Assembly (NCBI GenBank): GCA_041654875.1
Contig: JBAZCP010000001.1
Span: 89,920-153,919, forward strand
Source of the DNA: Candidatus Cloacimonadales bacterium
Lineage (GTDB): Bacteria > Cloacimonadota > Cloacimonadia > Cloacimonadales > WRIO01
Direction: 5' to 3'
DNA length: 64,000 nt
Shown here: piece after piece, positions 1,589-58,489 of the stretch
Layout: every line of letters starts with the position of its first letter
How positions within the stretch are numbered: position 1 is the stretch's first letter
Notes under the pieces: model-generated
Database searches by the model: none
Told to the model about the DNA's origin: nothing
Seen by the model: the letters and a program-made list of their open reading frames with translations, nothing else
Position numbers and translations under genes: made by a program

Positions 1589-1696
1589 TTGATTCCCTTT
1601 AAAAACCCATTGATTCTCCAAGATAGCAAGGGGAAAGTAACGGGATGGTAACGGGATGGTAACGGGATGGTAACGGGATGCTAACGGGATGATAAA
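1589..1696 (+). repeat. Locus 1 of a dispersed 11-bp tandem array family: 42-bp conserved left flank (1589-1630) plus the array (1626-1696)
   Basis: The sequence reads GCAAGGGGAAA, GTAACGGGATG x4, CTAACGGGATG, then decays. The flank TTGATTCCCTTTAAAAACCCATTGATTCTCCAAGATAGCAAG recurs at 38349-38390. It is a GC-rich island in a 661-bp ORF-free AT-rich gap. Confidence 0.95.
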
Positions 1697-2096
1697 GATA
1701 ATAACGAAATCATTTTTACTTCTTGATTGTATGTTTTTAATTAATTATTTATAAAAAGTAAACAAATATTTACGTAAAAAATAGATTAGCAAACAACAAA
1801 TATTTTAAAAATATAGTCGAGAGTATCAACTGTTTTAATAAGATTTTTGTTATAAAGAGGTACCATTAATTGTATTCATTAATAATAATTAAGTTCTATT
1901 TAAATAGCAATTTAAAATCTGTTTGGCGTGACAAAGTACTGTATTATAGAAGATAGACTACTATTTAGTCAAGAATCATTTAATATATTGACAAAATTAA
2001 AAAGAAATATTTAGTTGTAATTAGTAGTAAAAAAAATGAAATATAGAGTGTATTTAAGCAATGAGGGGAAATAAATTAAAATAAAAGGAGCTAAAC

Positions 2097-7208: not shown

Positions 7209-7236
7209 ATTAAATTTGTTTTGATTATGTAGAGAA

Positions 7237-7308
7237 TTTCTACAGGGGTGCTCGCAAGGGCTGAGATTAAACCCTTTGAACCTGATCCGGGTAATGCCGG
7301 CGTAGGGA
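7237..7308 (+). promoter_or_regulatory. TPP (THI-box) riboswitch aptamer
   Basis: Canonical core AGGGGTGC...CTGAGA...ACCCTTTGAACCTGATCCGGGTAATGCCGGCGTAGGGA. P1 pairs TTTCTAC with GTAGGGA. Downstream, CCCTCC (7340-7345) can pair either with GGGAGG (7305-7310) or with the SD GGAGG (7374-7378). Confidence 0.93.
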
Positions 7309-7382
7309 GGATAGATAAATCCCATACCTATGCCTATTACCCTCCAATGCAGGATATTACTGCAAATATGAAAGGAGGAGTA

Positions 7383-8156
7383 ATGGAAGCTATAGTTTCC
7401 AATGCCATAGTGCATTCATACTTCAAAAAGCTACAAGACGCTTTGAGTCTTGATGTCGTAGTTGTTGGAGGTGGTCCATCAGGACTGGTAGCAAGTGAAA
7501 GTCTTGCTAAAAAAGGTTTTAAAGTCGCTCTATTTGATTCAAAACTCTCACCAGGCGGTGGCATGTGGGGCGGAGCAATGATGTTTAATGAGCTTGTTAT
7601 CCAAAAAGAAGCATGGCATATTCTCGAAGAATTTAATATCAAATATACAAAAATCTCCGAAGACCTTGCCACTGCAGACTCTATTCAAGCAACTTCATCA
7701 CTAATATATCACAGTAGTAAGGCTGGAGTTAAAGTGTTTAACTGTATATCAGTTGAAGACGTCGTATTTATAAATAATCGAGTATCAGGAGTTGTAATAA
7801 ACTGGACCCCTATCGGCAGGTTGGATATGCATGTCGACCCGTTGATGGTACGTTCAAAAGTAGTTCTTGATGCCACAGGTCATCCATCTGAAATTGCCAA
7901 AATTACTGCACAGAAAAATAATATCAAACTAAATACCGTAACTGGTATGATAATGGGGGAGATGTCTCTCTCAATTGATGAAGGTGAAAAAAGTACAATC
8001 GAAAATACCAAAGAAGCATATCCTGGACTTTATGTATCTGGTATGGCAGCAAATGGAGTGTTTGGTAGTTTTAGAATGGGACCAATATTTGGAGGTATGC
8101 TACAATCAGGTAAAAGTGCTGCAGAATCTATTGCAAAGGAATTGAGCAATGAATGA
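7383..8156 (+). CDS. thi4: Thiazole synthase, Thi4 family (archaeal-type, His variant)
   Basis: FAD motif VVVGGGPSGL and GGGMWGGAMMF are present. MHVDPL carries His (codon 7830-7832) where yeast THI4 has the sacrificial Cys. Start moved to ATG 7383 (AAAGGAGG RBS); the track ORF start at 7248 lies inside the riboswitch. Confidence 0.88.
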   Translation: MEAIVSNAIVHSYFKKLQDALSLDVVVVGGGPSGLVASESLAKKGFKVALFDSKLSPGGGMWGGAMMFNELVIQKEAWHILEEFNIKYTKISEDLATADSIQATSSLIYHSSKAGVKVFNCISVEDVVFINNRVSGVVINWTPIGRLDMHVDPLMVRSKVVLDATGHPSEIAKITAQKNNIKLNTVTGMIMGEMSLSIDEGEKSTIENTKEAYPGLYVSGMAANGVFGSFRMGPIFGGMLQSGKSAAESIAKELSNE

Positions 8157-12430: not shown

Positions 12431-14086
12431 TTATTCAAAATGAGAGCGTACAAGCTCGAATGCGTAGCATTTTAGCAAAGTATTTATATGTTTTGGATCT
12501 TCAGCGTTTGCCCTTGAAATGATTTTTTGTAGCTTTATGTGGTTATAATATGGGCTTCGTTGAGCTTCTATTGAGTTGAGTTTTTCGATTATATCTTGCT
12601 TAAACAGTCTAAATAGGATTACGCTTGAGTTTGTTTGACTGGCTAATTTTATTTTAGGTTCTTTTGCTTTGATATGAAAAAGCAATTCTGGATAATTTCT
12701 CGCTATTTGGTTATGGTATTCTTTAAAAAGAATTAAGGGTTTTGTGTTGAGATTTATGCGAGCTTTTATCAAATCGAAATGCAAATTGGGATTGTAAAAG
12801 CTTGCATATTGATTAAGAAATGCTAACTTATGGGCATGTGTATGCACTCCATGCAACATCAGCATAATAAACTCATCTCTTTGTTCATCATTGATAAAGC
12901 TATGCATAGAAAGCTGGCTTTTAAAGTCCTGGAGATGCTGGGCAAGTCCTTTCTTTAAAAATCTACTAAATTCTTCTCGAATCCAGCTATAATCGACTTT
13001 GAAGTGCTTGATTATTGAGCTTATATTGTCCTCATTCAGAGCTTTAATAAAAGATTTATTAATACTATAATTATAGTTTCTAAAGTAAAAGTGTGAAAAA
13101 TCATGCAACATAAAGTTGTAGCCTGCTTTATTAAGCTGGTTAGAAAAATGAATATAGTTTAATTCAGCTGGAATATCGCTATTAAATGTACTTAATATGT
13201 ATTGATTCCATAGGTTGAATAGTCTCTTTTTGTCGTCAATTCCAGGATTATGTTCAGAGTTGATATTAAAAGTATTTTGAAAGCTTGTAAATTGTTCTAA
13301 TTCTTCTTTATCATAAGGCTCCAACATAGACCAATTGTCTTTTGCTTTATTGAGTAATAAAGAAAGAGTGTATCTATTGGCTGTTGTATCATCAGACTGC
13401 AATAGTAGCTTTTTTTGCGAGTCAGGGTAAACAGTTAGAGCCTTATTTAACTTAAAAAAATAAGTGTTAATATCAGGCTCTTTAAAATCAGTCAAATCAA
13501 TACGTCTTTTTCCTGAAGTAAATTTATCATTATAAGCTTTTAAATAGGATGAAGCACCGAATCGAGATACATTTTTCATAAAAGATTGAGAAACAAACAT
13601 ATTAGGTAATAAAGCAAAGGCTCCAAATGCACTGTAATTCCAAGGCTTTTTATCAAGATAATTAGTTAGCCAATCAAGCCTACTGGCAATTATTGTATAC
13701 CCTTGTGAGGACGTATAGAACATGTCTTGTATGCCAAGTGTATCGTTCCAAACTTCAATTTCCTGTTCGTTCCATTTAAAGATTACATAGCCGCCATTCA
13801 TATCTTGTGAGTCTATAGTGCCATCTATTAATCTTTTCCAGTCGTTTTTTTCAGCTATTCCATATCCTGTTTCTTTAGTAAGATAGGCATTTCCAACTAC
13901 TAACCATCCAGACTTTTGTTCATAGCTATCATAATGTACAGTTGTATTGTGTTTTGTATCGGCAAAAGCAAGGTAAAATGAGGGTTTTATAATTGTGTTA
14001 TTTGTTTTTTTATGGGTTTGCAGGAATTTATCTATTTCCCACTTTACGAAAGGTTTGTGGCTTAACACACAAAATACCCAACTCAT
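12431..14086 (-). CDS. Hypothetical protein, distant asparagine-synthetase-B-like fold with degenerate catalytic motifs
   Basis: 551 aa. The N-terminal half follows the AsnB/GATase-II pattern (GWLVVGNAYL, GGYVIFKWN, VWNDTLGIQDMFY, IIASRLDWL). It starts MSW rather than MCG, and the expected PP-loop SGGxDS position reads QSDDTT. Confidence 0.35.
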   Translation of the reverse strand: MSWVFCVLSHKPFVKWEIDKFLQTHKKTNNTIIKPSFYLAFADTKHNTTVHYDSYEQKSGWLVVGNAYLTKETGYGIAEKNDWKRLIDGTIDSQDMNGGYVIFKWNEQEIEVWNDTLGIQDMFYTSSQGYTIIASRLDWLTNYLDKKPWNYSAFGAFALLPNMFVSQSFMKNVSRFGASSYLKAYNDKFTSGKRRIDLTDFKEPDINTYFFKLNKALTVYPDSQKKLLLQSDDTTANRYTLSLLLNKAKDNWSMLEPYDKEELEQFTSFQNTFNINSEHNPGIDDKKRLFNLWNQYILSTFNSDIPAELNYIHFSNQLNKAGYNFMLHDFSHFYFRNYNYSINKSFIKALNEDNISSIIKHFKVDYSWIREEFSRFLKKGLAQHLQDFKSQLSMHSFINDEQRDEFIMLMLHGVHTHAHKLAFLNQYASFYNPNLHFDLIKARINLNTKPLILFKEYHNQIARNYPELLFHIKAKEPKIKLASQTNSSVILFRLFKQDIIEKLNSIEAQRSPYYNHIKLQKIISRANAEDPKHINTLLKCYAFELVRSHFE

Positions 14087-14131
14087 TTCTTTTCTCCTAA
14101 TGAATAATGCTAATTATTCTTAACAAAGAAT

Positions 14132-14159
14132 AAAAAGAGCAAAATCTTAATTTTGCTCT
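14132..14159 (-). terminator. Rho-independent terminator after rpoD
   Basis: On the minus strand, AGAGCAAAAT-TAAG-ATTTTGCTCT is followed by TTTTTATT. Confidence 0.8.
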
Positions 14160-14169
14160 TTGTATAAAA

Positions 14170-15915
14170 TTAGCTTTGTTTTACATTAAAGTTTTCGATA
14201 AATTGAGTTAGTGTTGCACTTCTTGATGGATGTCTAAGCTTTCTAAGGGCTTTATCCTCAATTTGTCTTATTCGTTCTCGTGTTACATTAAATATATTGC
14301 CTACTTCTTCCAATGTTCTGTGGTTTCCATCATCGATACCAAAGCGTAGGCGTATTACTCGTTCTTCTCTTTGATTGAGTGTTTTTAAGATATCATCAAC
14401 TTGTCTTTTTAATAAGTTTCTTTCTGCCATTCGTTCGGGCGAAATTGTTGATTTATCTTCAATAAAGTCACCAAGATTACTATCTTCACTGTCATTACCA
14501 AGTGGTCTATCGAGCGACACAGGCTCTTTTGAGATGGAAAGTATATTTTTAACTTTATCAACAGTGATTTCAAGTGCATCAGCTATCTCATCAGGATGAG
14601 GTTCTCTACCGAGCTTTTGCATAAGCTTTCTGCTCATTCTATTTAGTTTATTAATTGACTCTATCATATGAACAGGTACACGGATTGTTCTGGCCTGATC
14701 AGCAATGGCTCTGGTAATTGCTTGTCTAATCCACCAAGTTGCGTAAGTCGAGAATTTGTAGCCTTTACGGTAGTCATATTTATCAACAGCTCTCATCAAG
14801 CCAGTATTACCTTCTTGTATCAGGTCCATAAAGTCTAAACCACGATTGATGTATCTTTTAGCTATGCTTACGACCAGGCGAACGTTTGCTTCGATAAGTT
14901 CATTTTTAGAGCGTTCTCTCATTTTTTCAGCACGTTCAATTTCTCGCAATAAGTTCATCATTTCATCAGAATTCATTTTGGTTTCGAGTTCTACACGTCT
15001 GATTTTTCTTTTGGCATTTTTTATTTTTCGTAATGTTTCGATAAACTGATTTGGATTAACGCCTGTTTCTGCTTTTACCTCATCAAAGTCTTCTTTGGAT
15101 TTTTTTGCTCTTCTGCCAAGCAAACAAATGTCGTCAAAAGAATATCCTTTTATTCGCACCAAATCATTTATTTGTTGTTGGGACTCTTCGATTCTATTTA
15201 CCAAACTTTTAATCCTATACACCATTCGTTTGATAAGCTTTTCATTAAACACAAGCCTTTGAAATGCACTGACAATTTGCTCTCTTTTTTTATCTATTTC
15301 GTCTGCCATTAAGAGCATTCCATCTTCATCATAGCCTGAATTGTCAATTATATCACCGACTTCGTTAAATATATCTTCAGCTTCTCTTATTATTGATTTA
15401 AACTCGTCCATTATTTTCTGATCTTGAGTCTTGTCGACCCAGCTACCATATTCAAGTCTAAAGATTTGGTCAATTCTTACACGTTTTTCATTATAACGAT
15501 ATAAAAAATTAAACATTTCTTTGAGCGTGCTTCCACATTTAAACACATTTTGATTTATCATCCTTTGAAAGCTTTCGATTTTCTTTGCAATACGAACTTC
15601 ACCTTCTCTATCGAGCAAGCCAACTCGTCCCATTTCTTTAAAATACATTTTCACAGGATCATCATAATACTTACGATTTACTGTCTTCTTTGTTTGGACA
15701 TTCTTTTTGACATGTGCTGCGCTTTTTGTGACTTTCTTTTGTGTCTCATCAATAATGTCAATACCTTGATCTTTCAAGTCATGAATAATATCGTCAATTT
15801 TGTCTAAAAATAAGGGATTGTCGGGTAATATTTCGTTTATTTGCTTATATGTTACATACCCTGCTTCCTTACCGAGTATAAATAATTTTTGCATATAATC
15901 ATTATAACTCAGCAT
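14170..15915 (-). CDS. rpoD: RNA polymerase primary sigma factor
   Basis: 581 aa. Regions 2-4 are conserved ([27 protein letters not shown]; [19 protein letters not shown]). Confidence 0.96.
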
Positions 15916-15924
15916 TTACTCTCC

Positions 15925-17799
15925 TTAAAAAATAGTTTTGTGGACAACAGACTTTGATAAAGCTTGAATTTCTTTTCGAAGAAATATCTTCTCTTCATAC
16001 AATTCTGCATTGTCCGGGTTTTTTGTTATTTGTTCATTAATCTCATTTAAATTTTCTTGTAGTTTTCTAAGTTTTATTTGCATAATTAAATCTTGAATAT
16101 CAAAATCGAAATCTTTAGCAAGCATAAAACCTGTTATTATGCCTTTTAATGCCTCACTTTCAAATTGATTCAGAAAATCATCTATCCTTTCATATATACC
16201 TAAATCATGATTATCGCATAGTTTGATATAAATACTTTTCATATCACTATTAATAAAGTAATCAGAATCTAATTCAGATGCAACTTTTTTTATCAAATTA
16301 TTATTTTTTATCAAATATTGTATCAAATATGCTTCTGCTAAATGTTTGTCAATTGTAGATTTCTGGGATTTATTCGCCATCTTAGATTGGGTTGTTTTAG
16401 GTTCAGAACTTATTTGTTGTGGTGTAGCTTTACTATAATCAGCCTCTACTTTATCATAAGTTCTTATTGTGCTTAATTGTTGTTTTAGGCTACTTATTTG
16501 AACGTCAAAGCGCTTACTAATCTCGTTCAAAAACAGGTCTCGGCTAATAAGATCTGTTAATTCATGGGCTACTTCAATCAAAAAGTCAATTGACTCTCTT
16601 GCTTGATCGTGATATTTATTATTGTATATAAAATCAATCAATGTACTTGCTTCATTAACAAGAAGTTGCAAGGACTCAGGTGAGTTTTTTAATAGATAAG
16701 TGTCAGGATCTTCATTTACGGGTAAATTAATAATCTTAACGCTTAATCCTGTTTTCAATGCTAAAGCAGCACCTTTTATAGCAGCGTCTTTACCAGCTCT
16801 GTCACTATCAAATAAAATATAAATGTTATTAGTATATCTTTTTAATAATTGTAACTGTTCTTCTGTCAATGCGGTGCCCAATGTAGCAACTGAGTTGGTG
16901 AAACCGCATTCCCATAGACGTAAAAAATCAAGATATCCCTCTGAAACAATCACGTATTTCATCTTATTAATTTCATATCGTGAATGATATAAACCATAAA
17001 GCACATTACCTTTTTGATAAATACGTGTGGTTGGTGAGTTAATATACTTTCCAAACTTTTCTGTTTCAGCTGTCAGTGCACGCCCTCCAAAGGCAACAAC
17101 TTTGCTATTTATGTCATGAATAGGAAACATAATTCGTTCGCGAAATATATCATAAGTATTATTGTTTTTAGATTTAAACAAACCAGTTTCATCAAGAATA
17201 TCATCATTAATTTGATTTCTCTTGAGGTGTTGCAATAAACCTTTATAGCTATTTAAAGAAAAACCAATATTGAATTTATTGATTGTTTCTTCAGTCAATT
17301 GTCTATTTTTTAGATAAGTCAATGCCATGCTACCGTGCTTTTTTAAGTTTTCAATATAATAGTCGTTTGCGAGACTGTAAATTGTATATAAAAGCTTAGT
17401 TTTTTTATCTAACTTCTTTTTGGGTCTATTTGTAGGAATTTCAAGATTTATTCGTTCTGCAAGCTTTCTTACTGCTTCTATAAAAGATATCTTTTCATAA
17501 TCTCTAACAAAGGTGATTACATTGCCTGCTTTACCACAACCAAAGCATTTGAAAATTTGTTTTGATGGGCTTACAGTAAAGGATCCTGTTTTTTCTTCAT
17601 GAAAAGGACAACGTGCCTTAAAGTTAGAGCCAGCACGAGTTAGTTTGATATATGAGCCTATAACATCAGCAATATTGATACTGTTGATGATTGTGTCTAT
17701 TATTTTCTCGTCAATTTTACTATATGGCACATGATCACTAAATTCATCTTCTTTTAATAAGTCCTGTGTTGAGAAAGAATTATCACTTATTTTAGGCAT
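15925..17799 (-). CDS. dnaG: DNA primase
   Basis: Zinc ribbon CPFHEEKTGSFTVSPSKQIFKCFGCG and TOPRIM motifs (VSEGYLDF, FDSDRAG). Confidence 0.95.
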   Translation of the reverse strand: MPKISDNSFSTQDLLKEDEFSDHVPYSKIDEKIIDTIINSINIADVIGSYIKLTRAGSNFKARCPFHEEKTGSFTVSPSKQIFKCFGCGKAGNVITFVRDYEKISFIEAVRKLAERINLEIPTNRPKKKLDKKTKLLYTIYSLANDYYIENLKKHGSMALTYLKNRQLTEETINKFNIGFSLNSYKGLLQHLKRNQINDDILDETGLFKSKNNNTYDIFRERIMFPIHDINSKVVAFGGRALTAETEKFGKYINSPTTRIYQKGNVLYGLYHSRYEINKMKYVIVSEGYLDFLRLWECGFTNSVATLGTALTEEQLQLLKRYTNNIYILFDSDRAGKDAAIKGAALALKTGLSVKIINLPVNEDPDTYLLKNSPESLQLLVNEASTLIDFIYNNKYHDQARESIDFLIEVAHELTDLISRDLFLNEISKRFDVQISSLKQQLSTIRTYDKVEADYSKATPQQISSEPKTTQSKMANKSQKSTIDKHLAEAYLIQYLIKNNNLIKKVASELDSDYFINSDMKSIYIKLCDNHDLGIYERIDDFLNQFESEALKGIITGFMLAKDFDFDIQDLIMQIKLRKLQENLNEINEQITKNPDNAELYEEKIFLRKEIQALSKSVVHKTIF

Positions 17800-20141
17800 A
17801 CTACTGTAACTCCATCTCCTCCTGATTCGATTGGTGGTGCAAAAAAATCAACAACTCTCTTGTTTTTTTTCAAATAAGATCTAACTTTTGTACGTAAAGC
17901 TCCAGTTCCTTTGCCATGTACTATGCGCACTCTATTTAGTCTGTTGAGAATGGCATTGTCAAGAAATTGATCAATCTGGGGCATTGCTTCTAAAAAAGTT
18001 AAGCCAAGCACCTTTAATTCGATATTTGAGTAATCTTCTTTATTGACAATTTGGCTACTTATTATGGCTTCTTGAGCTTCTTTTTTGTTTTCTAATAAAA
18101 CCAAATCTGTCATAGGGGAGTTAAAAAAAATTCCATTCATATCCACTTTTGCATTACCTTTATTTAGCTCAATAACGGTTGCTTTTGTCTCTAATTTTTC
18201 TAACCAGACTACAGACCCTACTTTTATTTTATCGTTTGATTTTGCCTTTGATTTACGCATTATAAGAGTTTCTGATTGTTTAAGTATATCATTTTGAAGA
18301 TTGTTGGTTTTATTGAGAGCTTCTTCAAGTTTTTGTTTTCTTTCAGCTTTGTTAATCTTTTTTATTTCTTCAATTTCTGCTATTAATTCTCTTTGTAAAT
18401 GAGTTAATTCTTCATTTTTTCTTTTTAAAGCTTCACTTATTTTTACTTTCTTTTGTTCTTCGATTTCATCAGTCTTCTTTTCATACTCGGAAATACGTTG
18501 TTCGAGTAATTTTGTTTTGATATCAAGCTTATATGTTGCTTGCCCTAAATATTTCTTCTCATCATTAAGTTTTGTTATTAAATGAGTAAGTTCCACGCTT
18601 TGATTTCCAGCTAATTCCTTAGCTTTATCTATGACACTTTTTTCAATACCTAATTTAGCAGCAATTTCAATAGCAAAGCTGTGTCCAGGCATTCCAAAGT
18701 TAAATTGGTATGTGGGTAAGTGACTTTTTGAGTCAAACTGCATAGAAGCATTTACGCATGATTCTGATTGTTCAGCGTAGATTTTAAGTGCTGTATAATG
18801 GGTAGTTATGATACCAGTTACGCCTTTTTGTACAAATTTCTCAAGTACTGCTTGTGCCAATGCTGATCCTTGTTCTGGATCAGTAGCTGCACCAATCTCA
18901 TCGATAAGTATAAGCGTGTTTTCATCACCTTTTTCGAGCATTTCAGCGATGTTTTTAATATGAGCTGAAAAGCTGCTAAGATATGATTCAATAGATTGAT
19001 TATCGCCAATATCAGCATAGACTTTATCAAATTTGCCAATCTGTGAGTTACTGTCAGCTGGTATTGGTAAACCAGAATGAGCCATTAATGTAAGCAATCC
19101 TATTGTCTTTAAAGTTACTGTTTTACCACCAGTATTAGGTCCTGAGATTAGCATTAGTTTCTTTTCTTTGCCAAGCTTTAAATCAAAAGGAATTACTTTT
19201 TTTATGTCATTATATTGAACGATTAAAAGTGGATGTCTTGCTTTTGTAAGTTCAATGATAGGTAAATCGACGAATAGCGGTGGGTTTGCCATAATCTTAT
19301 TAGAAAACCGTGCTATAGCAAATTCCGAATCAAGCTGAGACAGTATTTTTGAATTAATATATATTTGCTTTTTAACTTCGAATATTTCTTGGCTATATTT
19401 TGTAAAAATACGATAAATTTCTTGTTGTTCATCGCTATTTGTTTTGTTTAAATCATTATTTAAATTCATTACTTGCTTTGGCTCAAAGTAGATAGATGCA
19501 TTACTTGCTGAGCGTCCATGACTTATTCCATCAACAAATCCGCTTGCACCTTCTTTTATTAAAAGCACGTATCTATCGTCACGATGGGAGATGATTTTAT
19601 CCTGCAAATAGTTTTCCCAGCTTTGGTTTTTTTGTATGTCATCCAGAACTTTTAAGATATTACTTCTTAACTGTTTTTTCCTTTTTCTGATTGCCATAAG
19701 TTCTTTAGATGCAGTGTCTAATACTTCACCTTCAGCTGAGAATATCTCATAAAATCGTTTCTCAAGATAAAAGAAAGGCGATAGTTTTAATATCTTATTA
19801 GTGAAAATTGGATAATCTAAAAAAGATTCTTTATCTGAATAGATTTTGTTTGTGATTTTGACACACTCAATTATTTGTGTAAATTCTTCAAAATTATAAG
19901 AGCTATGTTCCCATTCTAAGAGTAATTCTTTGAGGTCTATCAGAGTTTCAAAATGATAATTATAGCCTAAAATAGATATTCTCTGTAACTCGTTAATAAG
20001 TTGTAATTTATCAATCTTATCTTGTTTTGCGTTCAATGGTTTTATGGATTCAGTTATTATTTTACCATTAAAACTATGAGTGTCTTTTTTTATCAATTCA
20101 ATAATTTTATTGAATTCAAGATGATGGAATGTGTTATACAT
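17787..20141 (-). CDS. mutS2: Endonuclease MutS2 (MutS-family ATPase with C-terminal Smr domain)
   Basis: 784 aa with Walker A GPNTGGKT and a C-terminal Smr domain (VRIVHGKGTGALR). Confidence 0.94.
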   Translation of the reverse strand: MYNTFHHLEFNKIIELIKKDTHSFNGKIITESIKPLNAKQDKIDKLQLINELQRISILGYNYHFETLIDLKELLLEWEHSSYNFEEFTQIIECVKITNKIYSDKESFLDYPIFTNKILKLSPFFYLEKRFYEIFSAEGEVLDTASKELMAIRKRKKQLRSNILKVLDDIQKNQSWENYLQDKIISHRDDRYVLLIKEGASGFVDGISHGRSASNASIYFEPKQVMNLNNDLNKTNSDEQQEIYRIFTKYSQEIFEVKKQIYINSKILSQLDSEFAIARFSNKIMANPPLFVDLPIIELTKARHPLLIVQYNDIKKVIPFDLKLGKEKKLMLISGPNTGGKTVTLKTIGLLTLMAHSGLPIPADSNSQIGKFDKVYADIGDNQSIESYLSSFSAHIKNIAEMLEKGDENTLILIDEIGAATDPEQGSALAQAVLEKFVQKGVTGIITTHYTALKIYAEQSESCVNASMQFDSKSHLPTYQFNFGMPGHSFAIEIAAKLGIEKSVIDKAKELAGNQSVELTHLITKLNDEKKYLGQATYKLDIKTKLLEQRISEYEKKTDEIEEQKKVKISEALKRKNEELTHLQRELIAEIEEIKKINKAERKQKLEEALNKTNNLQNDILKQSETLIMRKSKAKSNDKIKVGSVVWLEKLETKATVIELNKGNAKVDMNGIFFNSPMTDLVLLENKKEAQEAIISSQIVNKEDYSNIELKVLGLTFLEAMPQIDQFLDNAILNRLNRVRIVHGKGTGALRTKVRSYLKKNKRVVDFFAPPIESGGDGVTVVCLK

Positions 20142-20144
20142 TAT

Positions 20145-20669
20145 TTATTGTTTGATCGACTTAGCTTCTTTGTGTTTATCAATTTGGCTGACAATATTTG
20201 GAGTAATAACTTCTTTAATCTTTTGAGTTTCTTTTATAATATAAGACTTGTTGATATATTCTTGTATTGATTTAGTATATGGAACTAATTCAATAATAGT
20301 AATTAAAATCATTAATACAATAACAGCATTTAGAAATCCTATTAAGGCTCCAAAACACTTATTTACAAATGTTAACGAGAGAAGATTTGCTATCTGATTG
20401 AGTAAAATAATTACTAATTTTGACAGAATTACAACCATGACAAAGATTATGAGATAGGATAAAATATTAGCAAAGAATACGCCAATAGGGAATTTATTCA
20501 TAATTCCTGCTGTTACCATTGGAGCATATCTAATAATCAAAAGACATGCTACCACCAAGCCGACCCAATGTACTATTGTTGCGATTAAGCCTTTTTTAAA
20601 GCCAAAAAAAAGTGCAACAATAAAGTAAACAATTAGCACTATATTCAATACATTATAATTCATAAGCAC
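20145..20669 (-). CDS. cvpA: CvpA-family membrane protein
   Basis: 174 aa with four hydrophobic helices, in the typical position upstream of mutS2. Confidence 0.6.
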   Translation of the reverse strand: MLMNYNVLNIVLIVYFIVALFFGFKKGLIATIVHWVGLVVACLLIIRYAPMVTAGIMNKFPIGVFFANILSYLIIFVMVVILSKLVIILLNQIANLLSLTFVNKCFGALIGFLNAVIVLMILITIIELVPYTKSIQEYINKSYIIKETQKIKEVITPNIVSQIDKHKEAKSIKQ

Positions 20670-20698
20670 CTATAATATTTGATCTAAAGGGTTGTAAA

Positions 20699-20716
20699 AG
20701 GGGACTTTCATCCCCT
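20699..20716 (-). terminator. Intra-operon hairpin (possible attenuator) between yqeY and cvpA
   Basis: AGGGGA-loop-TCCCCT, followed on the minus strand by only a weak T-run (TTTAC). Confidence 0.3.
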
Positions 20717-20722
20717 AAATTT

Positions 20723-21160
20723 TCAAGATAATTTTTGTTTTACAATTGAGCTGATTATTGAGCCATCAGCACGTGAACCTACTTGTTCTTTGACAGCTTT
20801 AATAACAGCTCCCATTTCCTTTATAGTTTTTGCATCAAGATCATTAATTGATTTGTCAATTATTTGACTTAATTCATCTTCTGTCAAAGGAATGGGAAGG
20901 TATGTCCGCAGAATATCAATTTCAGCTTTGCCTTTTTCTACCAGATCATCTCGATTACCTTGATGAAAAAGTACATTTGCCTGTTCTTTACTTTTAACAG
21001 CTTTTTGGATTAGGCTAATGATTTCGGCGTCAGTAAGTTTCTTTTTAAGCTCAATTTCTTTGTTCTGCATTTCACTTTTTAGTATGCGAAGAACTTCAAG
21101 CTTGTGGGTATCTCTTTGACGCATAGCCTCTTTGATATCATTATTTATTCGTGTAAACAC
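20723..21160 (-). CDS. yqeY: GatB/YqeY domain protein
   Basis: 145 aa with YqeY-family sequence features (IKEAMRQRD...LRILKSE...EIISLIQK). Confidence 0.8.
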   Translation of the reverse strand: MFTRINNDIKEAMRQRDTHKLEVLRILKSEMQNKEIELKKKLTDAEIISLIQKAVKSKEQANVLFHQGNRDDLVEKGKAEIDILRTYLPIPLTEDELSQIIDKSINDLDAKTIKEMGAVIKAVKEQVGSRADGSIISSIVKQKLS

Positions 21161-21363
21161 TAACCATACCTCTCCATTTTGCGGGTGAGTTTAATCATCT
21201 TTCTTCTTGCAGCATTATTTTTACGCTTACGTTCGACACTTGGCTTCTCGTATGCTTGTCTTTTCTTAATTTCAGATAAGATAGCTGCTTTTTCACATTT
21301 CTTCTTAAAACGTTTTAAAGTTACTTCGAAAGGTTCTGTTTCTTTAGCATATACTGTTGGCAT
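21160..21363 (-). CDS. rpsU: 30S ribosomal protein S21
   Basis: [48 protein letters not shown]. Start set to the second ATG (21363); the upstream in-frame codons spell the SD GGAGGTG. Confidence 0.9.
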
Positions 21364-21625
21364 GTTTTCACCTCCTTTCATTTAACAAATTAATATAAGA
21401 TTAATACAATAATCTTTATATTATACATAAAAATAAAGTTCGCATTATTTGTCAAGATAAATTTGTCAATAAAAGAGAACTATTTGATTAGTGTTTGTAT
21501 CAGCTATTAATAGTAGAATTATTACAGTAATTGTAAAAATCATTGACTCAAACTTTTGACTTTGTAATCAATTTGAACTGACAGATATTAGCACATCTTT
21601 TTCATTCAGATGAACCCCCCTTATG

Positions 21626-21707
21626 TTCACGAAATATTCACGAATGATTAACGGGAAAGTAACGGGAAAGTAACGGGATGGTAACGGGATGGTAACGGGA
21701 TGGTACA
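21626..21707 (+). repeat. Locus 2 of the 11-bp tandem array family
   Basis: TTAACGGGAAA, GTAACGGGAAA, GTAACGGGATG x3 (21648-21702), then GTACAGG. Two decayed units lie upstream in the same 11-bp register (TTCACGAAATA, TTCACGAATGA at 21626 and 21637). Confidence 0.95.
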
Positions 21708-22133
21708 GGTAAAACAAGAGAAATCTTCTTAATAAGTTAACACAAGATTGTCGTATTGATATTAAGTTTTGCGAGGGTTAGTCAGTACTTTTTTGATGTC
21801 AATTATCTTTTTCAACAGTTTTTTGACAATTAACATATTAATTTTATTATTTAATACCCCCTTGTAATTAAAATAAAAAACATATATTGGTTTGATTAAA
21901 GGGATTATGCTTCCTAAAGTCTTTTTTTACTTTTCTATAAATATGTTATTTGAGTATCTTAAATTTATTGTTTTTTTGAATACCTTTTAGTAATCTATTA
22001 TATTAAGTTACATGACCACACTTCAATTTAAATGATTCAAATACATATAAAAGAAATCGAAAGAATTGTTTTAGGTTGACATTTTTTTGTCTTTTTAAAT
22101 ATTGTATTAAAAAATGATATTAGAGGTATTATT

Positions 22134-25100
22134 ATGAAGAAATTTATGGTTATACTCTTCTTAATTGGGAGCATTTTCATTTTGTTTTCATTTGAGCCTG
22201 AGTTTATGGTAGATCCTGCAATCTCTCCTGATGGAAGCGAAGTATGTTTTTCATATTTAAATGATTTATGGGTTGTTTCCATCGATGGAGGCATAGCTAA
22301 AAGACTATCAAGCACAAGCGGTTATGACTATAATCCAGAGTACTCTCCAGATGGAAGTATGATAGCGTTTAACTCTGACCGTGATGGTGTGAATAAAATA
22401 TATATAATACCTGCAAAAGGTGGTTTAGCAAAAGCTATTTCTCAAGAAAGGCTTGTATTTCACGATTGGTTTAGCGATAATAAACATATTTTAGCAGGAA
22501 TTACATCACCAGGAGAGTATTCTCAGTTAGTTAAAGTAAGCATTGAAGATGGGAAAAGACCTGTCATTATAGCTGAATATGGTGATTCCTTTGCGTGTGT
22601 GTCTCCAGACGATAAAAGCATTATATTTAATAGAAGGGGAGACCCTTATAGAGAGGCTTATAAAGGTAGCCATAACGGCGATTTGTTTTTATATGACATC
22701 AAAAAGAAAGTTTATTCACAACTGACAGATACACAAATAACCGAGCGATATCCTGTTTTTTCTCATGTTGAGAATGATATTATCTATTATTGTGCATCGG
22801 ATGGAAAAGTGTTTCAAATATATAAATCTAATATTGCCAACATGTCAGATAAAGAACAGCTCACAAATTTTGATTTATGGTCGCCACGAGATTTATCAAT
22901 ATCAGATAATGATACAATAGTTTTTGAGTTATTTAATAAAATTTGTAAACTCAATACAGCAACTAAACAAGTAGAGGAAATAAAGATCACTATTGCAGAA
23001 GACTTTTTAGATAGCAGTATTGTTGAAGAAACCAACCATAATAAGGTTAAATCTTTTGCAATATCACCCAATGGGAAATTAGTTGTTTTTAACTATAAAT
23101 ACGATCTTTTTGCTGTACCAAGTGCAGGTGGAAAAGTAAAGCAAATTACTAATAATCAGGCTGGAATTGAAGATATTGTTATCGGTCAAGATAATGAAAC
23201 CATTCTATTCACATCATATCTTAAAGGAGATTTGAAGCTATTCAAAACAAATATCAATAATCTTGATAAAATTGAGATGATAAAGTGGTCTCAAGATAAA
23301 AGAATTGTTAGCTTTAGCAGCTTTTATGATAGAATATTTATTAGATATCATCAAGGGGATAATAGAAATAGAATTGCCGTGATGGATTCAAATTATAACA
23401 AAGTAGAAGATTTGATTAAAGATCATAATGTAAGTTCTTACACCGTTAGTAAAGATTGTGAATACGTCTTTTATACAGTTTACGACAGGCAATCCAAAGC
23501 AAGCAATTTATATTTTTTAGATATAAAGAAAAATGAAAGCAGGCATATTCATAGTCAACTATCATATATCAGCAGTATTTCTCTTGATCCAGCAAATAAT
23601 TATTTGTTTTTGTCCTTTGAGTCTGGAATACATAAGTTAAGTTTGAACAGATTTAATGAATTTGAAAATGATGAAGATAAATGGGATGATATTTTAACAA
23701 CCAAGAGTGAAAAAGCCGAACATAAAGTCGCCGGTGAATTCAATTGGCAAAATCTTGATAATCGTTTTAACAAGATAGTTAGTGCAGATGAAGGCATGTG
23801 GGTTTATCCACTTTTTGCCACATCTGATTCTACATTATATTATATGAGTTATAGTAGAAAGAATAGCATTATTAAGAAAATAAGCTATAATGGAAAAGAT
23901 GATAAGGAAGTATTTAATGCAAATAGCAAGATAGATACATTTGATTTTATAAATGGTGGTAAAACTCTATATTACTCGACTAATGGCAGTATATATAATA
24001 CTCAACTACCTGGCAGTAAAGGTGAGCAATTAGCTTTTACGCATAGATATAAATACGATAAAATTAAGTTAAATAGTTCTATAATGGAGCATGTTTGGGC
24101 AAGTATGGCAAATAATTTTTATGATAAAAATATGCATGAACAAGACTGGAATAAGCTTTATAATCGCTTTTTCCCATATACAGAAAATCTATTGAGTGTG
24201 AGTATGCTGAGCTCAGTGATTGATGAAATGATAGGAGAGTTAAATGCCTCTCATACTGGGTATTATGGTCGCCATGAAAGTTTGAGTAATACAAAGCAAA
24301 GTTCATACATTGGAGCTACTTTTGACTATTCAAATAGACTAAAAAAAGGTTTAAGAATAAAAAAAGTATATAAAGATTCTCAATTAGCTGAAACTTGGAG
24401 TATTGTATCTGGAGATATTTTGCTTGCTATTGATGGTGTGGAAATTAACGAAAAAACAGCAGTTGATGAGCTTTTATATCATAAAGCTGGTGAGAAAGTA
24501 AGTTTGCTTTTTAAGTCTAAAGGGTTGACTGAAATAAAAGCGTTAAACTATTCATCGCAGAATAACTTACGTTACAACAATTGGGTTGCAGAAAGAGCAG
24601 AAATAGTAAATAAAGCAACTGGTGGCAAAATTGGTTATTTACATATTAGAAGCATGAATAAGCAAAGTTTAGATAAGTTTAAAGACGATTTATTAGCAAA
24701 AAACTTCTATACAAATGGATTGATTATCGATGTGAGAAAAAATGGTGGAGGTAATATTTCTGATGATTTAGTTGAAATATTAACAAGAAAACATCATTCA
24801 TACACCCAAAGCAGATACTCAGATGAGGAACCGATAAGCTTTCCAACAGGCACTTATGAAAAACCTCTGGTATTATTGATTGATGAAGACTCTTTTTCAG
24901 ATGCTGAAGTATTTCCTAATCTATTTAAATACCTAAAACTCGGAACCATAATCGGTATGCCAACAAGTGGCTCTGTAATAGGCACTGGGTCAGTTAACTT
25001 TATGGATGGCTCTTCTATGAGAATGCCATCGAGTGGCTGGTATACAATAGATAAAGATGGGTTGAGAAATATGGAAGGGAACCCTGCAGAGCCTGATATA

Positions 25101-25279: not shown

Positions 25280-26839
25280 CTATTCTTTTTCTGCTAAATT
25301 TTGTACATATTCACACATGTAGATTTCGTCTTTTTTATCTGTGAGTACTATTAAGTAATCGCCAGCAAATATTTTTGTATTACCTTTAGGAATTAATTCA
25401 TTTCTACCACGTCTAATTCCAACTAATAGGCAAGATTTGGGCCATTGTATATCCATAATTTGTTTTTGGTCGATATGGGAGCCCATGCGAACAGCTACTT
25501 CTATAATAACTTTTTGATTACTTTCTTCTATGATATTCTTTTTGTTCTCTTTTATAAAGCGAGCAAGAAGTGTTTCATAAATAGCATCAGATTTTAGCAA
25601 ATCAGCTGTCAAATATGCAGTAATTGAGACCACACTTAGAGAAAGTAGATGGCTAAATGAGCCTGTCATTTCAGTAATTAAGAGGCTTCCTGTAATAGGA
25701 GCTTTGACAATGGCAGTAAAATAGCCAGCCATAGCTAAGACAATAAAGTTATTTATATATACGCTATCTATGCCAGTAGCTGAAGTAATCAAGTATCCAT
25801 AAACATTACCAATCAGAGCCCCAATAACTAAAAGTGGCAAAAAAATACCTCCAGGTGCACCACTACCATAACTAATCATTGTGAAGAGGAATTTACCCAC
25901 AAGAAGAATCAATAGAAACTTTAGAGCAGTACTTTGATGAACCAAATCTATTACGAGATGATGCCCACCACCTAATATATCAGGCAGAAAAAAGCCAAGT
26001 GCACCAGCAATTAAAACAGGTATTACCATCTTAAATGGTTCTGGGATAAACTTCATTTTCTTGTAATAATTTAATGAAAAAATCAATGACTTGTTAAAAT
26101 AAACTCCTGATATACCGATTATTACTCCTAACAATAATATTGATCCATAATACTTTAGAGGTAAAATCTCAAGAACAGATAAATTGAATACAGGGTCAAA
26201 ACCAAAAATCACTTTATTGAAGAAATCAGCTGTAATACAGGCTACAGTTGTCGGTAATAAGACAAGAGGGGAGAAGTTTTTGTGCACCTCTTCCAGAACA
26301 AAGACAATTCCAGAAAGTGGTGCACTAAAAGCACCAGACAATCCTGCTCCTGCACCAGAAGAAATCAAGTATTTCTCTTCAATTCTAACTCTCTTGAAAA
26401 TACGACTGACGCCCTTTCCAATTAAAGCTCCCATTTGTACAGATGGTCCTTCTCGACCCAGCGATAGACCAGCTGCAATCATCAGAAAACCATTGGTAAA
26501 TTTGTTGAATAAAGTTTTCCACCAACTCATATCAATATGCCCTAAAAGTTCACCTTCTACTTGTGGGATACCACTACCGCTGATCATTGGCACTCTTTTT
26601 GTGCGGTATTTAACATAAATGGCAATAAGTATTAATAATAAAAACCAAATAGGGATTAACCAATAGTGTGATTTCATATATCTATACGCAGTTGTAGATA
26701 GTTTGCCTGCAAAATCGAGCATGATACGATATGCAACAACAACAATACCAGTGATTAAGCCAACTAAAATTGACTCAAATACAAGCTTCATTTTAATATC
26801 TTGCCAATGGCGTATAGTGTTTAGAATATTATTTTTCAT
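25280..26839 (-). CDS. ClC-family chloride channel/transporter with C-terminal TrkA-C-like domain
   Basis: 519 aa with the selectivity motifs GREGPSVQMG and GAPGGIFLP. Confidence 0.85.
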   Translation of the reverse strand: MKNNILNTIRHWQDIKMKLVFESILVGLITGIVVVAYRIMLDFAGKLSTTAYRYMKSHYWLIPIWFLLLILIAIYVKYRTKRVPMISGSGIPQVEGELLGHIDMSWWKTLFNKFTNGFLMIAAGLSLGREGPSVQMGALIGKGVSRIFKRVRIEEKYLISSGAGAGLSGAFSAPLSGIVFVLEEVHKNFSPLVLLPTTVACITADFFNKVIFGFDPVFNLSVLEILPLKYYGSILLLGVIIGISGVYFNKSLIFSLNYYKKMKFIPEPFKMVIPVLIAGALGFFLPDILGGGHHLVIDLVHQSTALKFLLILLVGKFLFTMISYGSGAPGGIFLPLLVIGALIGNVYGYLITSATGIDSVYINNFIVLAMAGYFTAIVKAPITGSLLITEMTGSFSHLLSLSVVSITAYLTADLLKSDAIYETLLARFIKENKKNIIEESNQKVIIEVAVRMGSHIDQKQIMDIQWPKSCLLVGIRRGRNELIPKGNTKIFAGDYLIVLTDKKDEIYMCEYVQNLAEKE

Positions 26840-38348: not shown

Positions 38349-38423
38349 TTGATTCCCCTTTAAATCCCCTTCATTCTCCAAGATAGCAACGGGATGGTAA
38401 CGGGATGGTAACGGGATGGTATT
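38349..38423 (+). repeat. Locus 3 of the 11-bp tandem array family: conserved flank (38349-38390) plus the array (38386-38423)
   Basis: GCAACGGGATG and GTAACGGGATG x2, then GTATT. The flank TTGATTCCCCTTTAAATCCCCTTCATTCTCCAAGATAGCAAC matches the locus-1 flank at 37 of 43 aligned columns. Confidence 0.95.
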
Positions 38424-58437: not shown

Positions 58438-58466
58438 ATTATAGTGGGAAAGTAACGGGATGGTAA
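58438..58466 (-). promoter_or_regulatory. Candidate minus-strand promoter built from an array unit
   Basis: On the minus strand: TTACCA (58466-58461, inside a repeat unit), exactly 17 bp, then a perfect TATAAT (58443-58438) 2 nt beyond the left edge of the G-rich array. Confidence 0.35.
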
Positions 58467-58489
58467 CGGGATGGTAACGGGATGGTATC
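58441..58489 (+). repeat. Locus 4 of the 11-bp tandem array family
   Basis: ATAGTGGGAAA and GTAACGGGATG x3 (58452-58484), then GTATCG. It lies in a 942-bp ORF-free gap. Confidence 0.95.

What the first reader, a model, noticed from the sequence alone, without database searches (positions are those of the whole stretch)
21626..21707. Array locus 2: eight phased 11-bp units with a degeneracy gradient
There are five good units: TTAACGGGAAA, GTAACGGGAAA and GTAACGGGATG x3. They are preceded, in exactly the same 11-bp register, by two decayed units (TTCACGAAATA at 21626 and TTCACGAATGA at 21637). At loci 1, 2 and 4 the leftmost units carry GGGAAA and the inner units GGGATG, and every array ends on the right with a truncated GTA. 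This internal polarity is conserved across loci. That argues for a structured element (graded-affinity sites or directional expansion) rather than random microsatellite noise. The locus sits in the 770-bp divergent gap between the rpsU operon and the tricorn-like protease gene.
Basis: seen in the sequence. Interest (0 to 1): 0.65.

Follow-up and report, generated by a model that had tools for sequence, protein, structure and literature searches.

The report
Dispersed intergenic repeat with 11-bp arrays
The 11-bp tandem array is real, but it is the amplified arm of a roughly 100-bp repeat element scattered through the intergenic DNA of an uncultured Cloacimonadota bacterium: an undescribed family of a known general kind, not a new kind of system.

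Summary
The array at 21626-21707 is real and far beyond chance. It is one of four same-strand GTAACGGGATG arrays in the window. About 30 more Cloacimonadota-type copies turned up in digester, landfill and sludge metagenomes.

The arrays are not free-standing microsatellites. Most sit in a composite element built entirely in 11-nt register. It has 3-5 C-type units (TCCCC...), an almost invariant 15-nt core (TTCTCCAAGATAGCA) and then G-type units. The perfect array sits on one side of the core or the other. The finding's locus has the array but no recognisable core.

The polarity is real but looser than claimed. Variant units lie only on the core side, yet only 11 of 32 arrays start with GGGAAA and only 19 of 32 end in GTA.

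Unit number did not change between assemblies or strains. Flanking genes are unrelated housekeeping genes. The elements favour divergent, promoter-bearing gaps. No stable fold, G-quadruplex, Rfam family, phage or plasmid match was found.

Best reading: a lineage-specific dispersed repeat family resembling BrickBuilt, BOX, REP and STRR elements, with one arm amplified by in-register slippage. Its function is unproven. A protein-binding platform is not excluded.

The parts
21648..21705 (+). Locus 2 (the finding): array TTAACGGGAAA, GTAACGGGAAA, GTAACGGGATG x3, then a partial GTA
   Evidence: Identical unit number in five independent assemblies, with one SNP in L007
21626..21647 (+). Locus 2: two in-register 11-mers, TTCACGAAATA and TTCACGAATGA. 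They are 9/11 identical to each other and 6/11 and 4/11 to the array unit. They may be a diverged, duplicated core, but this is not significant
   Evidence: alignment test p 0.1-0.5
21612..21625 (+). Locus 2: C-rich stretch GAACCCCCCTTATG, resembling a C-type arm unit (weak)
21703..21716 (+). Locus 2: decayed terminal unit GTACAGGTAAAACA (family consensus for unit +1: gTAa.gg.aat)
1590..1613 (+). Locus 1: C-type arm TGATTCCCTTTAAAAACCCATTGA
1614..1628 (+). Locus 1: invariant core TTCTCCAAGATAGCA
1629..1712 (+). Locus 1: junction unit AGGGGAAA, array GTAACGGGATG x4 plus CTAACGGGATG, and decayed tail ATAAAGATAATAACGAAATCA
38350..38373 (+). Locus 3: C-type arm TGATTCCCCTTTAAATCCCCTTCA
38374..38388 (+). 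Locus 3: invariant core TTCTCCAAGATAGCA
38386..38421 (+). Locus 3: array GCAACGGGATG, GTAACGGGATG x2, then GTA. The first unit overlaps the end of the core. The same three units appear in the indel-rich independent assembly L062
58433..58451 (+). Locus 4: TGGTGATTATAGTGGGAAA, resembling the form-B junction (reversed core end plus GGGGAAA)
   Evidence: p 0.006 against L012, 0.10 against the consensus
58452..58487 (+). Locus 4: array GTAACGGGATG x3, then GTA

Best explanation
The array is the amplified arm of one partly decayed copy of a dispersed intergenic repeat family. The family is specific to a narrow Cloacimonadota lineage.

Shown:
- A full element is about 90-120 bp and is built entirely of 11-nt units in one register.
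- It has 3-5 C-type units (..TCCCC..T..), a 15-nt core TTCTCCAAGATAGCA that is identical in 22 of 26 copies, and then G-type units (..GGGGA..).
- The perfect run (GTAACGGGATG)n, with n = 2-5, lies on one side of the core (form A) or as its reverse complement on the other side (form B). It never lies on both sides.
- A related species carries array-less copies of the same element.

Inferred:
- The family spread through intergenic DNA as a non-autonomous repeat, or was maintained as one.
- The arrays arose from the pre-existing 11-nt periodicity by replication slippage or unequal exchange in steps of one unit. Other 11-mers of the same elements are also tandemly duplicated in register (TTCACGAA.. 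x2 here, TCCTACTACAC x3, CCTTTTGATTC x2).
- The 'degeneracy gradient' is the boundary between the homogenised interior of the array and the non-amplified junction or core sequence.
- The invariance of the core and the unit suggests that both are recognised by some trans-acting protein, either the enzyme that moves the element or a host DNA-binding protein. That protein is not identified.

The array is not a gene-specific operator, not a hypervariable contingency locus and not a structured RNA.
For: - Four arrays in the window and about 30 non-redundant Cloacimonadota-type arrays in metagenomes share the unit, the register and the flanks.
- Orienting by the core shows the two mirror forms and the invariant core.
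- The unit-index table shows the register is kept from unit -5 to +1, at 6.4-10.7 bits per unit against 2.7-4.1 bits in the flanks.
- Array-less copies occur in the nearest relative species. There are three copies that align well over about 120 nt.
- Elements are intergenic in 31 of 33 cases.
- Neighbouring genes are unrelated housekeeping genes with no shared theme and no transposase.
- Positions are not conserved across relatives. The site upstream of YitT is empty in the 85%, 74% and 61% relatives.
- Window loci 3 and 4 lie at synteny breakpoints.
- Unit number is unchanged in 5 assemblies of locus 2, in an independent assembly of locus 3, and in 5 same-locus pairs at 94-99.9% identity.
- Sub-motifs of the unit are neither enriched nor avoided outside the arrays.
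- There is a published precedent for a dispersed intergenic element that contains a minisatellite and has copies lacking its leader or tail: BrickBuilt (PMC4596501).
Against: - No target-site duplication, no sharply defined termini and no autonomous partner were found. Only some copies show a 12-nt inverted pair (TGATTCCCTTTA / TAAAGGGAATCA).
- No insertion polymorphism was seen between close strains.
- The core and the array unit are far better conserved than the opposite arm. Simple neutral decay of transposed copies does not predict this. It hints at in-situ selection or active homogenisation.
- The elements favour divergent over convergent gaps, 13 to 2 (p about 0.007). The G-rich strand tends to be the sense strand of the downstream gene, 10 to 3 in tandem contexts (p about 0.09). 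Among core-bearing copies in tandem contexts (these overlap the 10:3 set), the array lies on the downstream side in 8 of 9 (p about 0.04). This could reflect function rather than tolerance.
- At the finding's own locus, membership rests on the array alone.
- The metagenome copies were found with a 2-perfect-unit seed, which biases the sample toward perfect arrays.
Confidence: 0.55

Rival explanations
1. DNA-level protein-binding platform. The 11-bp units (7 conserved bases, AACGGGA, plus 4 more variable) place identical sites on one face of the helix. They would bind a lineage-specific protein cooperatively, such as a nucleoid-associated protein or a global regulator. The C-type arm would give the same sites in inverted orientation around the core. 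The complex would shape or insulate nearby promoters. This partly overlaps with the best explanation if the protein is the element's own mobilising enzyme.
For: - The period of 11 is close to one helical turn, and the register is kept over the whole element.
- The unit and the core are near-invariant while the other arm keeps only the TCCCC pattern.
- There is a strong preference for promoter-bearing divergent gaps and an orientation bias toward the downstream gene.
- No RNA structure competes as an explanation.
- From general knowledge, PhoB pho boxes and the parC iterons of plasmid R1 are 11-bp phased direct repeats.
Against: - There is no fixed distance to start codons (about -2 to 618 nt, median about 270).
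- Downstream genes have no common theme.
- Single units are not enriched outside the elements.
- Positions are not conserved between relatives.
- No candidate protein is known.
Confidence: 0.2
2. RNA-level motif array. Transcribed in the sense of the downstream gene, the array offers evenly spaced, unstructured GGA motifs. GUAACGGGAUGG matches the CsrA SELEX consensus RUACARGGAUGU at 9 of 12 positions. It could bind a CsrA-like or other single-strand RNA-binding protein, either as a long leader or as a sponge.
For: - The G strand is the sense strand of the downstream gene in 25 of 32 cases, and in 10 of 13 tandem contexts.
- The arrays are no more structured than shuffles, with z from -0.07 to +1.1, so they would stay single-stranded.
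- The consensus is documented in PMC4347634.
- Flagellar genes, which often go with CsrA-FliW (own knowledge), occur in related contigs.
Against: - The arrays lie far from start codons and probably upstream of the promoters. At locus 2 the best sigma-70-like sites lie downstream of the array (weak evidence).
- The critical A of ANGGA is a C here.
- Dozens of copies per genome is unlike known sponge RNAs.
- No promoter or terminator frames the array.
- Whether csrA is present in this genome was not tested.
Confidence: 0.08
3. Bidirectional Rho-utilisation site or insulator. Whichever way a transcript enters the element, it first meets a C-rich, G-poor, unstructured tract with YC dimers every 11 nt. 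Rho would therefore stop transcription from crossing the intergenic region.
For: - The C-arm on one strand and the reverse complement of the array on the other are C-rich and G-poor.
- The - strand of locus 4 folds at only -3.6 kcal/mol.
- No intrinsic terminators are predicted in the four gaps.
Against: - Elements are rare in convergent gaps (2 of 32), where terminators are most needed. They are commonest in divergent gaps, where no transcript should enter.
- Many arrays are only 2-3 units (22-33 nt) long, shorter than typical rut sites (own knowledge).
Confidence: 0.05
4. Contingency locus. Unit number changes at high frequency and switches or tunes the neighbouring promoters, giving phase variation.
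For: It is a tandem repeat in promoter-bearing intergenic DNA. An 11-bp step would keep flanking sites on the same helical face.
Against: Unit number is identical in every comparison available: five assemblies of locus 2, an independent error-rich assembly of locus 3, and five same-locus pairs from different samples at 94-99.9% identity.
Confidence: 0.03

Closest known systems
BrickBuilt MITE with internal 23-nt minisatellite, Porphyromonas gingivalis (PMC4596501)
   Same: - It is a dispersed, strictly intergenic, species-restricted element with a spacer-less tandem repeat inside conserved flanking modules.
- Some copies lack the leader or the tail, like window loci 2 and 4.
- It lies 49-591 nt from neighbouring genes, which are unrelated to each other.
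- The host belongs to the same FCB superphylum (own knowledge).
   Different: - BrickBuilt has 23-nt units, up to about 23 copies, long non-repetitive leader and tail (up to about 300 nt), IS5-type terminal inverted repeats and some target duplications.
- Here the units are 11 nt with 2-5 copies, and the whole element is 11-nt phased with inverted polarity around a 15-nt invariant core.
- No IS-type ends or duplications were found here. There is no sequence similarity.
BOX elements of Streptococcus pneumoniae (boxA-boxB(n)-boxC; PMC3049150)
   Same: It is a modular dispersed intergenic repeat in which one internal module varies in number. It is restricted to one lineage, judged parasitic and moves slowly.
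   Different: From own knowledge, boxB is about 45 nt. BOX elements form extensive RNA secondary structure. Here no fold better than shuffles and no covariation was found.
REP/BIME and REPIN elements (own knowledge)
   Same: They are short intergenic elements with inverted symmetry, present at tens to hundreds of copies per genome. They are lineage-specific. In some families the most conserved part is central or near a hairpin. BIME-2 forms tandem arrays.
   Different: REPs are true hairpins, are mostly 3' of genes, and are tied to a RAYT transposase gene. Here the arms do not pair convincingly, the elements favour 5'/divergent gaps, and no RAYT could be sought.
Dispersed short tandem repeats: cyanobacterial STRR and GGGNATC repeats of Xanthomonas/Nostoc (PMC4692102); TAACTGA repeats of Beggiatoaceae (PMC4679880)
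   Same: - One fixed short unit is tandemly repeated 2-6 or more times at many intergenic loci.
- There is no pattern in downstream gene function.
- The function is unresolved.
- The degenerate G-type units here even contain GGGAATC.
   Different: - Those units are 7 nt.
- GGGNATC repeats form G-quadruplexes, prefer four units, and are under-represented between divergent ORFs.
- TAACTGA repeats sit within a few nt of start codons.
- Here the unit is 11 nt, no G4 is predicted, divergent gaps are preferred, arrays are far from starts, and arrays are embedded in a larger core-bearing element.
Phased 11-bp protein-binding repeats: PhoB pho boxes and parC iterons of plasmid R1 (own knowledge)
   Same: The period is 11 bp, and sites are head-to-tail with a conserved 7-mer plus a 4-nt spacer. 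parC has two sets of repeats flanking a core.
   Different: Those are single loci or coherent regulons at fixed promoter positions. Here there are dozens of loci beside unrelated genes at variable distances.

Membership tests
MITE (non-autonomous DNA transposon) | Terminal inverted repeats at defined ends | tested here: inconclusive
   Some copies begin TGATTCCC(C)TTTA and end TAAAGGGAATCA (a 5'-TG...CA-3' pair). Many copies have no sharp left end. In the relative species, conservation runs beyond these motifs.
MITE (non-autonomous DNA transposon) | Target-site duplication | tested here: inconclusive
   No direct repeat was evident by inspection next to the candidate ends in the three best-defined copies. 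No filled-versus-empty pair was available.
MITE (non-autonomous DNA transposon) | Autonomous partner element with the same ends | not testable with these tools
   No genome of the lineage was found in the genome collection. The 40 neighbouring ORFs scanned include no transposase.
MITE (non-autonomous DNA transposon) | Presence/absence polymorphism between related genomes | tested here: inconclusive
   Between genus-level relatives the site upstream of YitT is filled in the window and empty in three relatives. Upstream of the tricorn-like gene, both the window and L052 carry an element, but the DNA is not alignable. Close strains show no differences.
REP/REPIN | Stable imperfect hairpin | tested here: not met
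   Fold z-scores range from -0.07 to +1.1 on both strands. The consensus structure has 5 pairs, -0.48 kcal/mol and 0 compensatory changes.
REP/REPIN | Associated RAYT (Y1 transposase) gene flanked by elements | not testable with these tools
   No complete genome was available.
Modular repeat with internal minisatellite (BrickBuilt/BOX type) | Conserved flanking modules around a variable number of tandem units, dispersed in intergenic DNA | tested here: met
   C-arm and core on one side, a decayed terminal unit on the other, n = 2-5 units, and 31 of 33 copies intergenic.
Dispersed short tandem repeats (STRR type) | The same short unit tandemly repeated at many separate loci of one genome | tested here: met
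   Four loci in 64 kb. Up to five loci on one 158-kb contig.
Contingency (phase-variable) repeat | Unit number varies between closely related genomes | tested here: not met
   Unit number is identical in all 11 comparisons. Assemblies give only the consensus of each population.
Response-regulator (PhoB/OmpR-type) binding array | Fixed position relative to the promoter, and a functionally coherent regulon | tested here: not met
   Distances to the downstream start run from -2 to 618 nt. Neighbouring genes are heterogeneous.
CsrB-type sponge RNA or CsrA site | GGA motifs (ANGGA) in hairpin loops of a discrete transcript, or overlapping a Shine-Dalgarno sequence | tested here: inconclusive
   There is one GGA per unit and a 9/12 match to the SELEX consensus, but CGGGA stands in place of ANGGA. 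There is no framing promoter or terminator. The arrays are far from Shine-Dalgarno sequences.
G-quadruplex-forming repeat | Four G-tracts with short loops and a predicted G4 | tested here: not met
   The loops are 8 nt. ViennaRNA with G4 enabled predicts none. The G4Hunter-like score is 1.05.
Rfam RNA families | Match to a curated covariance model | tested here: not met
   There is no hit at the loci at gathering threshold or at E <= 1.

The most novel reading that the evidence does not exclude
The elements would be a genome-wide, protein-read architecture peculiar to this Cloacimonadota lineage. A dedicated protein would recognise the invariant 15-nt core. It would polymerise along, or actively maintain, the identical 11-bp units on the gene-proximal side. 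This would give dozens of phased nucleoprotein platforms upstream of promoters.

That would explain three things: the core and unit stay identical at more than 30 loci while the other arm drifts; the amplified arm faces the downstream gene; and a relative has a different 11-nt array (AGAGACAAGAG) upstream of the same gene.
Probability: 0.12. Interest if true: 0.7.

Novelty: new variant of a known kind. Interest (0 to 1): 0.38.

Why it matters
If the main reading is right, this is a tidy, previously unreported repeat family in an abundant but uncultured anaerobic-digester phylum. The practical consequences are:
- It breaks short-read assemblies exactly at the arrays.
- It marks synteny breakpoints.
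- It could serve as a strain or lineage marker.

The architecture is unusual. Everything is phased at 11 nt, polarity is inverted around an invariant core, and only one arm is amplified. The contrast between the invariant core and unit and a drifting opposite arm makes it a reasonable place to look for a new DNA-recognising protein or mobilisation mechanism. By itself it does not open a long-standing question.

Tried and rejected
- **Structured RNA or hairpin.** Folds of all four loci on both strands are no better than shuffles. RNAalifold on 23 core-centred copies gave 5 pairs and no covariation.
- **Rfam.** Nothing at gathering threshold or E <= 1.
- **G-quadruplex.** None predicted.
- **Phage or plasmid origin.** There were no hits for the 22-mer or the core in viral contigs, and none by blastn in the phage and plasmid collections.
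- **GTDB representative genomes.** The 22-mer gave no hit. The tricorn-like protein query produced no confirmed relative (33 pattern matches, none passing tblastn). The lineage was therefore not found there by either query.
- **Regulon theme.** Pfam scans of 28 downstream and 20 upstream neighbours found none.
- **Orientation clustering along contigs, as for a KOPS- or Chi-like polar signal.** All four window arrays are on the + strand, but across six contigs the clustering is not significant (Fisher combined p about 0.5, my calculation). Local GC skew is confounded by gene orientation.
- **Restriction-site or single-site enrichment.** GGATG and other sub-motifs occur at the expected frequency outside the arrays.
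- **Homology of the locus-2 left flank to the core.** Not significant.
- **Orthology of the elements upstream of the tricorn-like gene in the window and L052.** The intergenic DNA is not alignable.
- **Promoter scans.** Uninformative in this AT-rich DNA.
- **Ga0214179, L015, L034 and L035 hits.** Set aside as probably coincidental unit matches. The Ga0214179 contigs look like low-coding, eukaryote-like satellite DNA.
- **Literature.** No paper holds the unit in a relevant context.

Full report
**Observation.** The sequence at 21626-21707 reads, in one 11-nt register: TTCACGAAATA, TTCACGAATGA, TTAACGGGAAA, GTAACGGGAAA, GTAACGGGATG x3, then GTA. TRF reports 21649-21705 with period 11 and 5.2 copies. 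The window has 21 matches to the unit at up to 2 mismatches, against 4.9 expected, and no shuffle reached 21. Twelve of the matches are perfect. They form four in-register clusters, all on the + strand and all intergenic: 1637-1695, 21648-21705, 38386-38421 and 58452-58487. The locus lies between rpsU and a tricorn-like S41 protease gene. rpsU heads an rpsU-yqeY-cvpA-mutS2-dnaG-rpoD cluster. One side claim is wrong: locus 1 does not end in GTA.

**Source organism.** Names attached to identical proteins place the window in a Candidatus Cloacimonadota/Cloacimonadales MAG. The same locus occurs in digester-type JGI, ENA, Logan and NCBI assemblies. The lineage was not found in the GTDB-representative collection by the two queries tried. 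The nearest relative of the protease is only 66% identical.

**The array is part of a larger element.** An exact search for two units in JGI metagenomes gave 42 stretches. After removing duplicates and unrelated hits, about 30 share flanks with window loci 1 and 3. To the left of the array lies a 15-nt core, TTCTCCAAGATAGCA, or its reverse complement. Further left lie 3-5 C-rich 11-mers. When every copy is oriented by the core, two mirror forms appear:
- Form A: degenerate C-type arm, then core, then perfect (GTAACGGGATG)n.
- Form B: perfect (CATCCCGTTAC)n, then core, then degenerate G-type arm (GGGGAAT...).

No copy has both arms perfect. The core is identical in 22 of 26 copies. In a table of units indexed from the array edge (32 arrays), the 11-nt register is kept from unit -5 to unit +1, at 6.4-10.7 bits per unit against 2.7-4.1 bits in the flanks. 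The unit next to the array ends in AAA in 11 arrays and in ATG in 15. The right end is GTA in 19. The number of perfect units is 2 in 19 arrays, 3 in 12 and 4 in 1. Other 11-mers are also tandemly duplicated in register, which points to slippage in steps of one unit: TTCACGAA.. x2 at this locus, TCCTACTACAC x3 in L024 and CCTTTTGATTC x2 in L056. A profile search found no further array-less copies in the window or in the flanks of the loci.

**The finding's own locus.** It has the array, a decayed terminal unit and a C-rich stretch, but no recognisable core. The resemblance of its left flank to the C-arm and core is not significant (p 0.1-0.5). Locus 4 weakly resembles a form-B junction. Copies that lack a flanking module are also known for BrickBuilt.

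**Relatives.**
- The species 66-85% identical in protein (Ga0116243) carries three array-less copies with the same core. They align well over about 120 nt. One of them lies about 400 nt upstream of its tricorn-like gene, as in the window, but the DNA does not align.
- Upstream of YitT, where window locus 3 sits, the 85%, 74% and 61% relatives have no element.
- A 68% relative has a different 11-nt array there, AGAGACAAGAG x3.8.
- The Trx-OsmC-MarR block next to locus 4 sits beside YitT in L059. Loci 3 and 4 therefore coincide with synteny breakpoints.

**Stability.**
- Locus 2 has the same unit number in five assemblies, with one SNP.
- Locus 3 has three units in an independent, indel-rich assembly.
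- Five same-locus pairs from different samples, at 94-99.9% identity, have identical arrays.
- Logan contigs start inside the array, as expected when a repeat is longer than k.

**Context.** These figures rest on a crude ORF caller. Of 32 arrays with a called downstream ORF, the gene 3' of the G strand is co-oriented in 25. There are 13 divergent gaps against 2 convergent (p about 0.007). In tandem contexts the split is 10 to 3 (p about 0.09). Among core-bearing copies in tandem contexts, which overlap the 10:3 set, the perfect array faces the downstream gene in 8 of 9 (p about 0.04). Distances to the start codon run from -2 to 618 nt. Neighbouring genes are unrelated housekeeping genes and none is a transposase. 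Clustering of orientation within contigs is not significant, and GC skew is confounded by gene orientation.

**Mechanistic tests.**
- No stable fold on either strand.
- No conserved structure or covariation.
- No Rfam match.
- No G4.
- No phage or plasmid match.
- Sub-motifs of the unit occur at the expected frequency outside the arrays.

**Interpretation.** The best-supported reading is a lineage-specific dispersed intergenic repeat family with one arm amplified by in-register slippage. The lack of both-arm-perfect copies is what would be expected if long perfect palindromes are unstable. That is an inference from general knowledge.

Two things do not fit simple neutral decay. First, the core and the unit are invariant beside a drifting opposite arm. 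Second, there are location and orientation biases. Both leave room for a protein-binding platform or an RNA-level role. The unit matches the CsrA consensus at 9 of 12 positions, but its position argues against that role. Rho-site and contingency-locus readings are disfavoured by gap type and by stability.

**Comparison with known systems.** The closest are the BrickBuilt MITE with its minisatellite (PMC4596501), pneumococcal BOX elements (PMC3049150), REP/REPIN elements, and dispersed heptamer repeats (GGGNATC, PMC4692102; TAACTGA, PMC4679880). None shares sequence with this family. None has the fully 11-nt-phased design with inverted polarity and a central core. I therefore rate it a new variant of a known kind, of moderate interest.

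Noticed in passing
window 7234-7325 (+): TPP riboswitch (Rfam RF00059, 74.8 bits) upstream of the gene at 7248-8156. This is the only Rfam hit in the window.
   Followed up: no
window 12431-21381 (-): The rpsU-yqeY-cvpA-mutS2-dnaG-rpoD cluster resembles the macromolecular-synthesis operon. The rpsU start is ambiguous (73 aa or 67 aa), which gives a 752-bp or 770-bp gap.
   Followed up: partly
window 38386-38421 and 58452-58487; L059, L063: Window loci 3 and 4 coincide with synteny breakpoints. The Trx-OsmC-MarR block that follows locus 4 in the window lies directly upstream of YitT in the 74% relative and about 9 kb downstream of YitT in the 68% relative.
   Followed up: partly
L063:1-41 and L064:1-41: A 68%-identical YitT relative has a different 11-nt tandem array, AGAGACAAGAG x3.8. 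It is purine-rich on the sense strand and lies 215 nt upstream of YitT. Both contigs start inside it.
   Followed up: no
L059:1371-1404: A C-type 11-nt array, TTCTTTCCTTA x3, lies near the 3' end of the thioredoxin gene in the 74% relative. No core is present.
   Followed up: no
L012, L049, L036, L052:9610-9625, L056:16140-16160: A second short motif, AATAGTCA or TAGTCAAAA (sometimes itself tandem, for example GACTATTTTTT x2-3 in L049), recurs 35-60 nt beyond the core on one side of the element.
   Followed up: no
L010, L032, L033, L039, L047 (Ga0214179 contigs): The same 11-mer, mixed with GGTAACGGGAC units, occurs at the ends of contigs with 27-31% GC and low coding density. Most of them share the right flank GGTAACGGTAACGGGACAAAATCAA.AGAAG.ACTGTA. 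The ORFs look eukaryote-like, so this is probably an unrelated satellite with a coincident unit.
   Followed up: partly
window 21670-21705 and the other arrays: Each pair of units encodes a mini-ORF, ATG GTA ACG GGA TGG TAA (MVTGW stop). The mini-ORFs overlap from unit to unit. This is probably a by-product.
   Followed up: no
window 60657-63761 (+): A 1034-aa protein combines a Ser/Thr protein kinase domain, leucine-rich repeats and an FGE-sulfatase domain.
   Followed up: no
window 20286-20338, 23968-24018, 25498-25552: Three imperfect two-copy tandem duplications of 26-28 bp lie inside coding regions (TRF scores 66-74).
   Followed up: no
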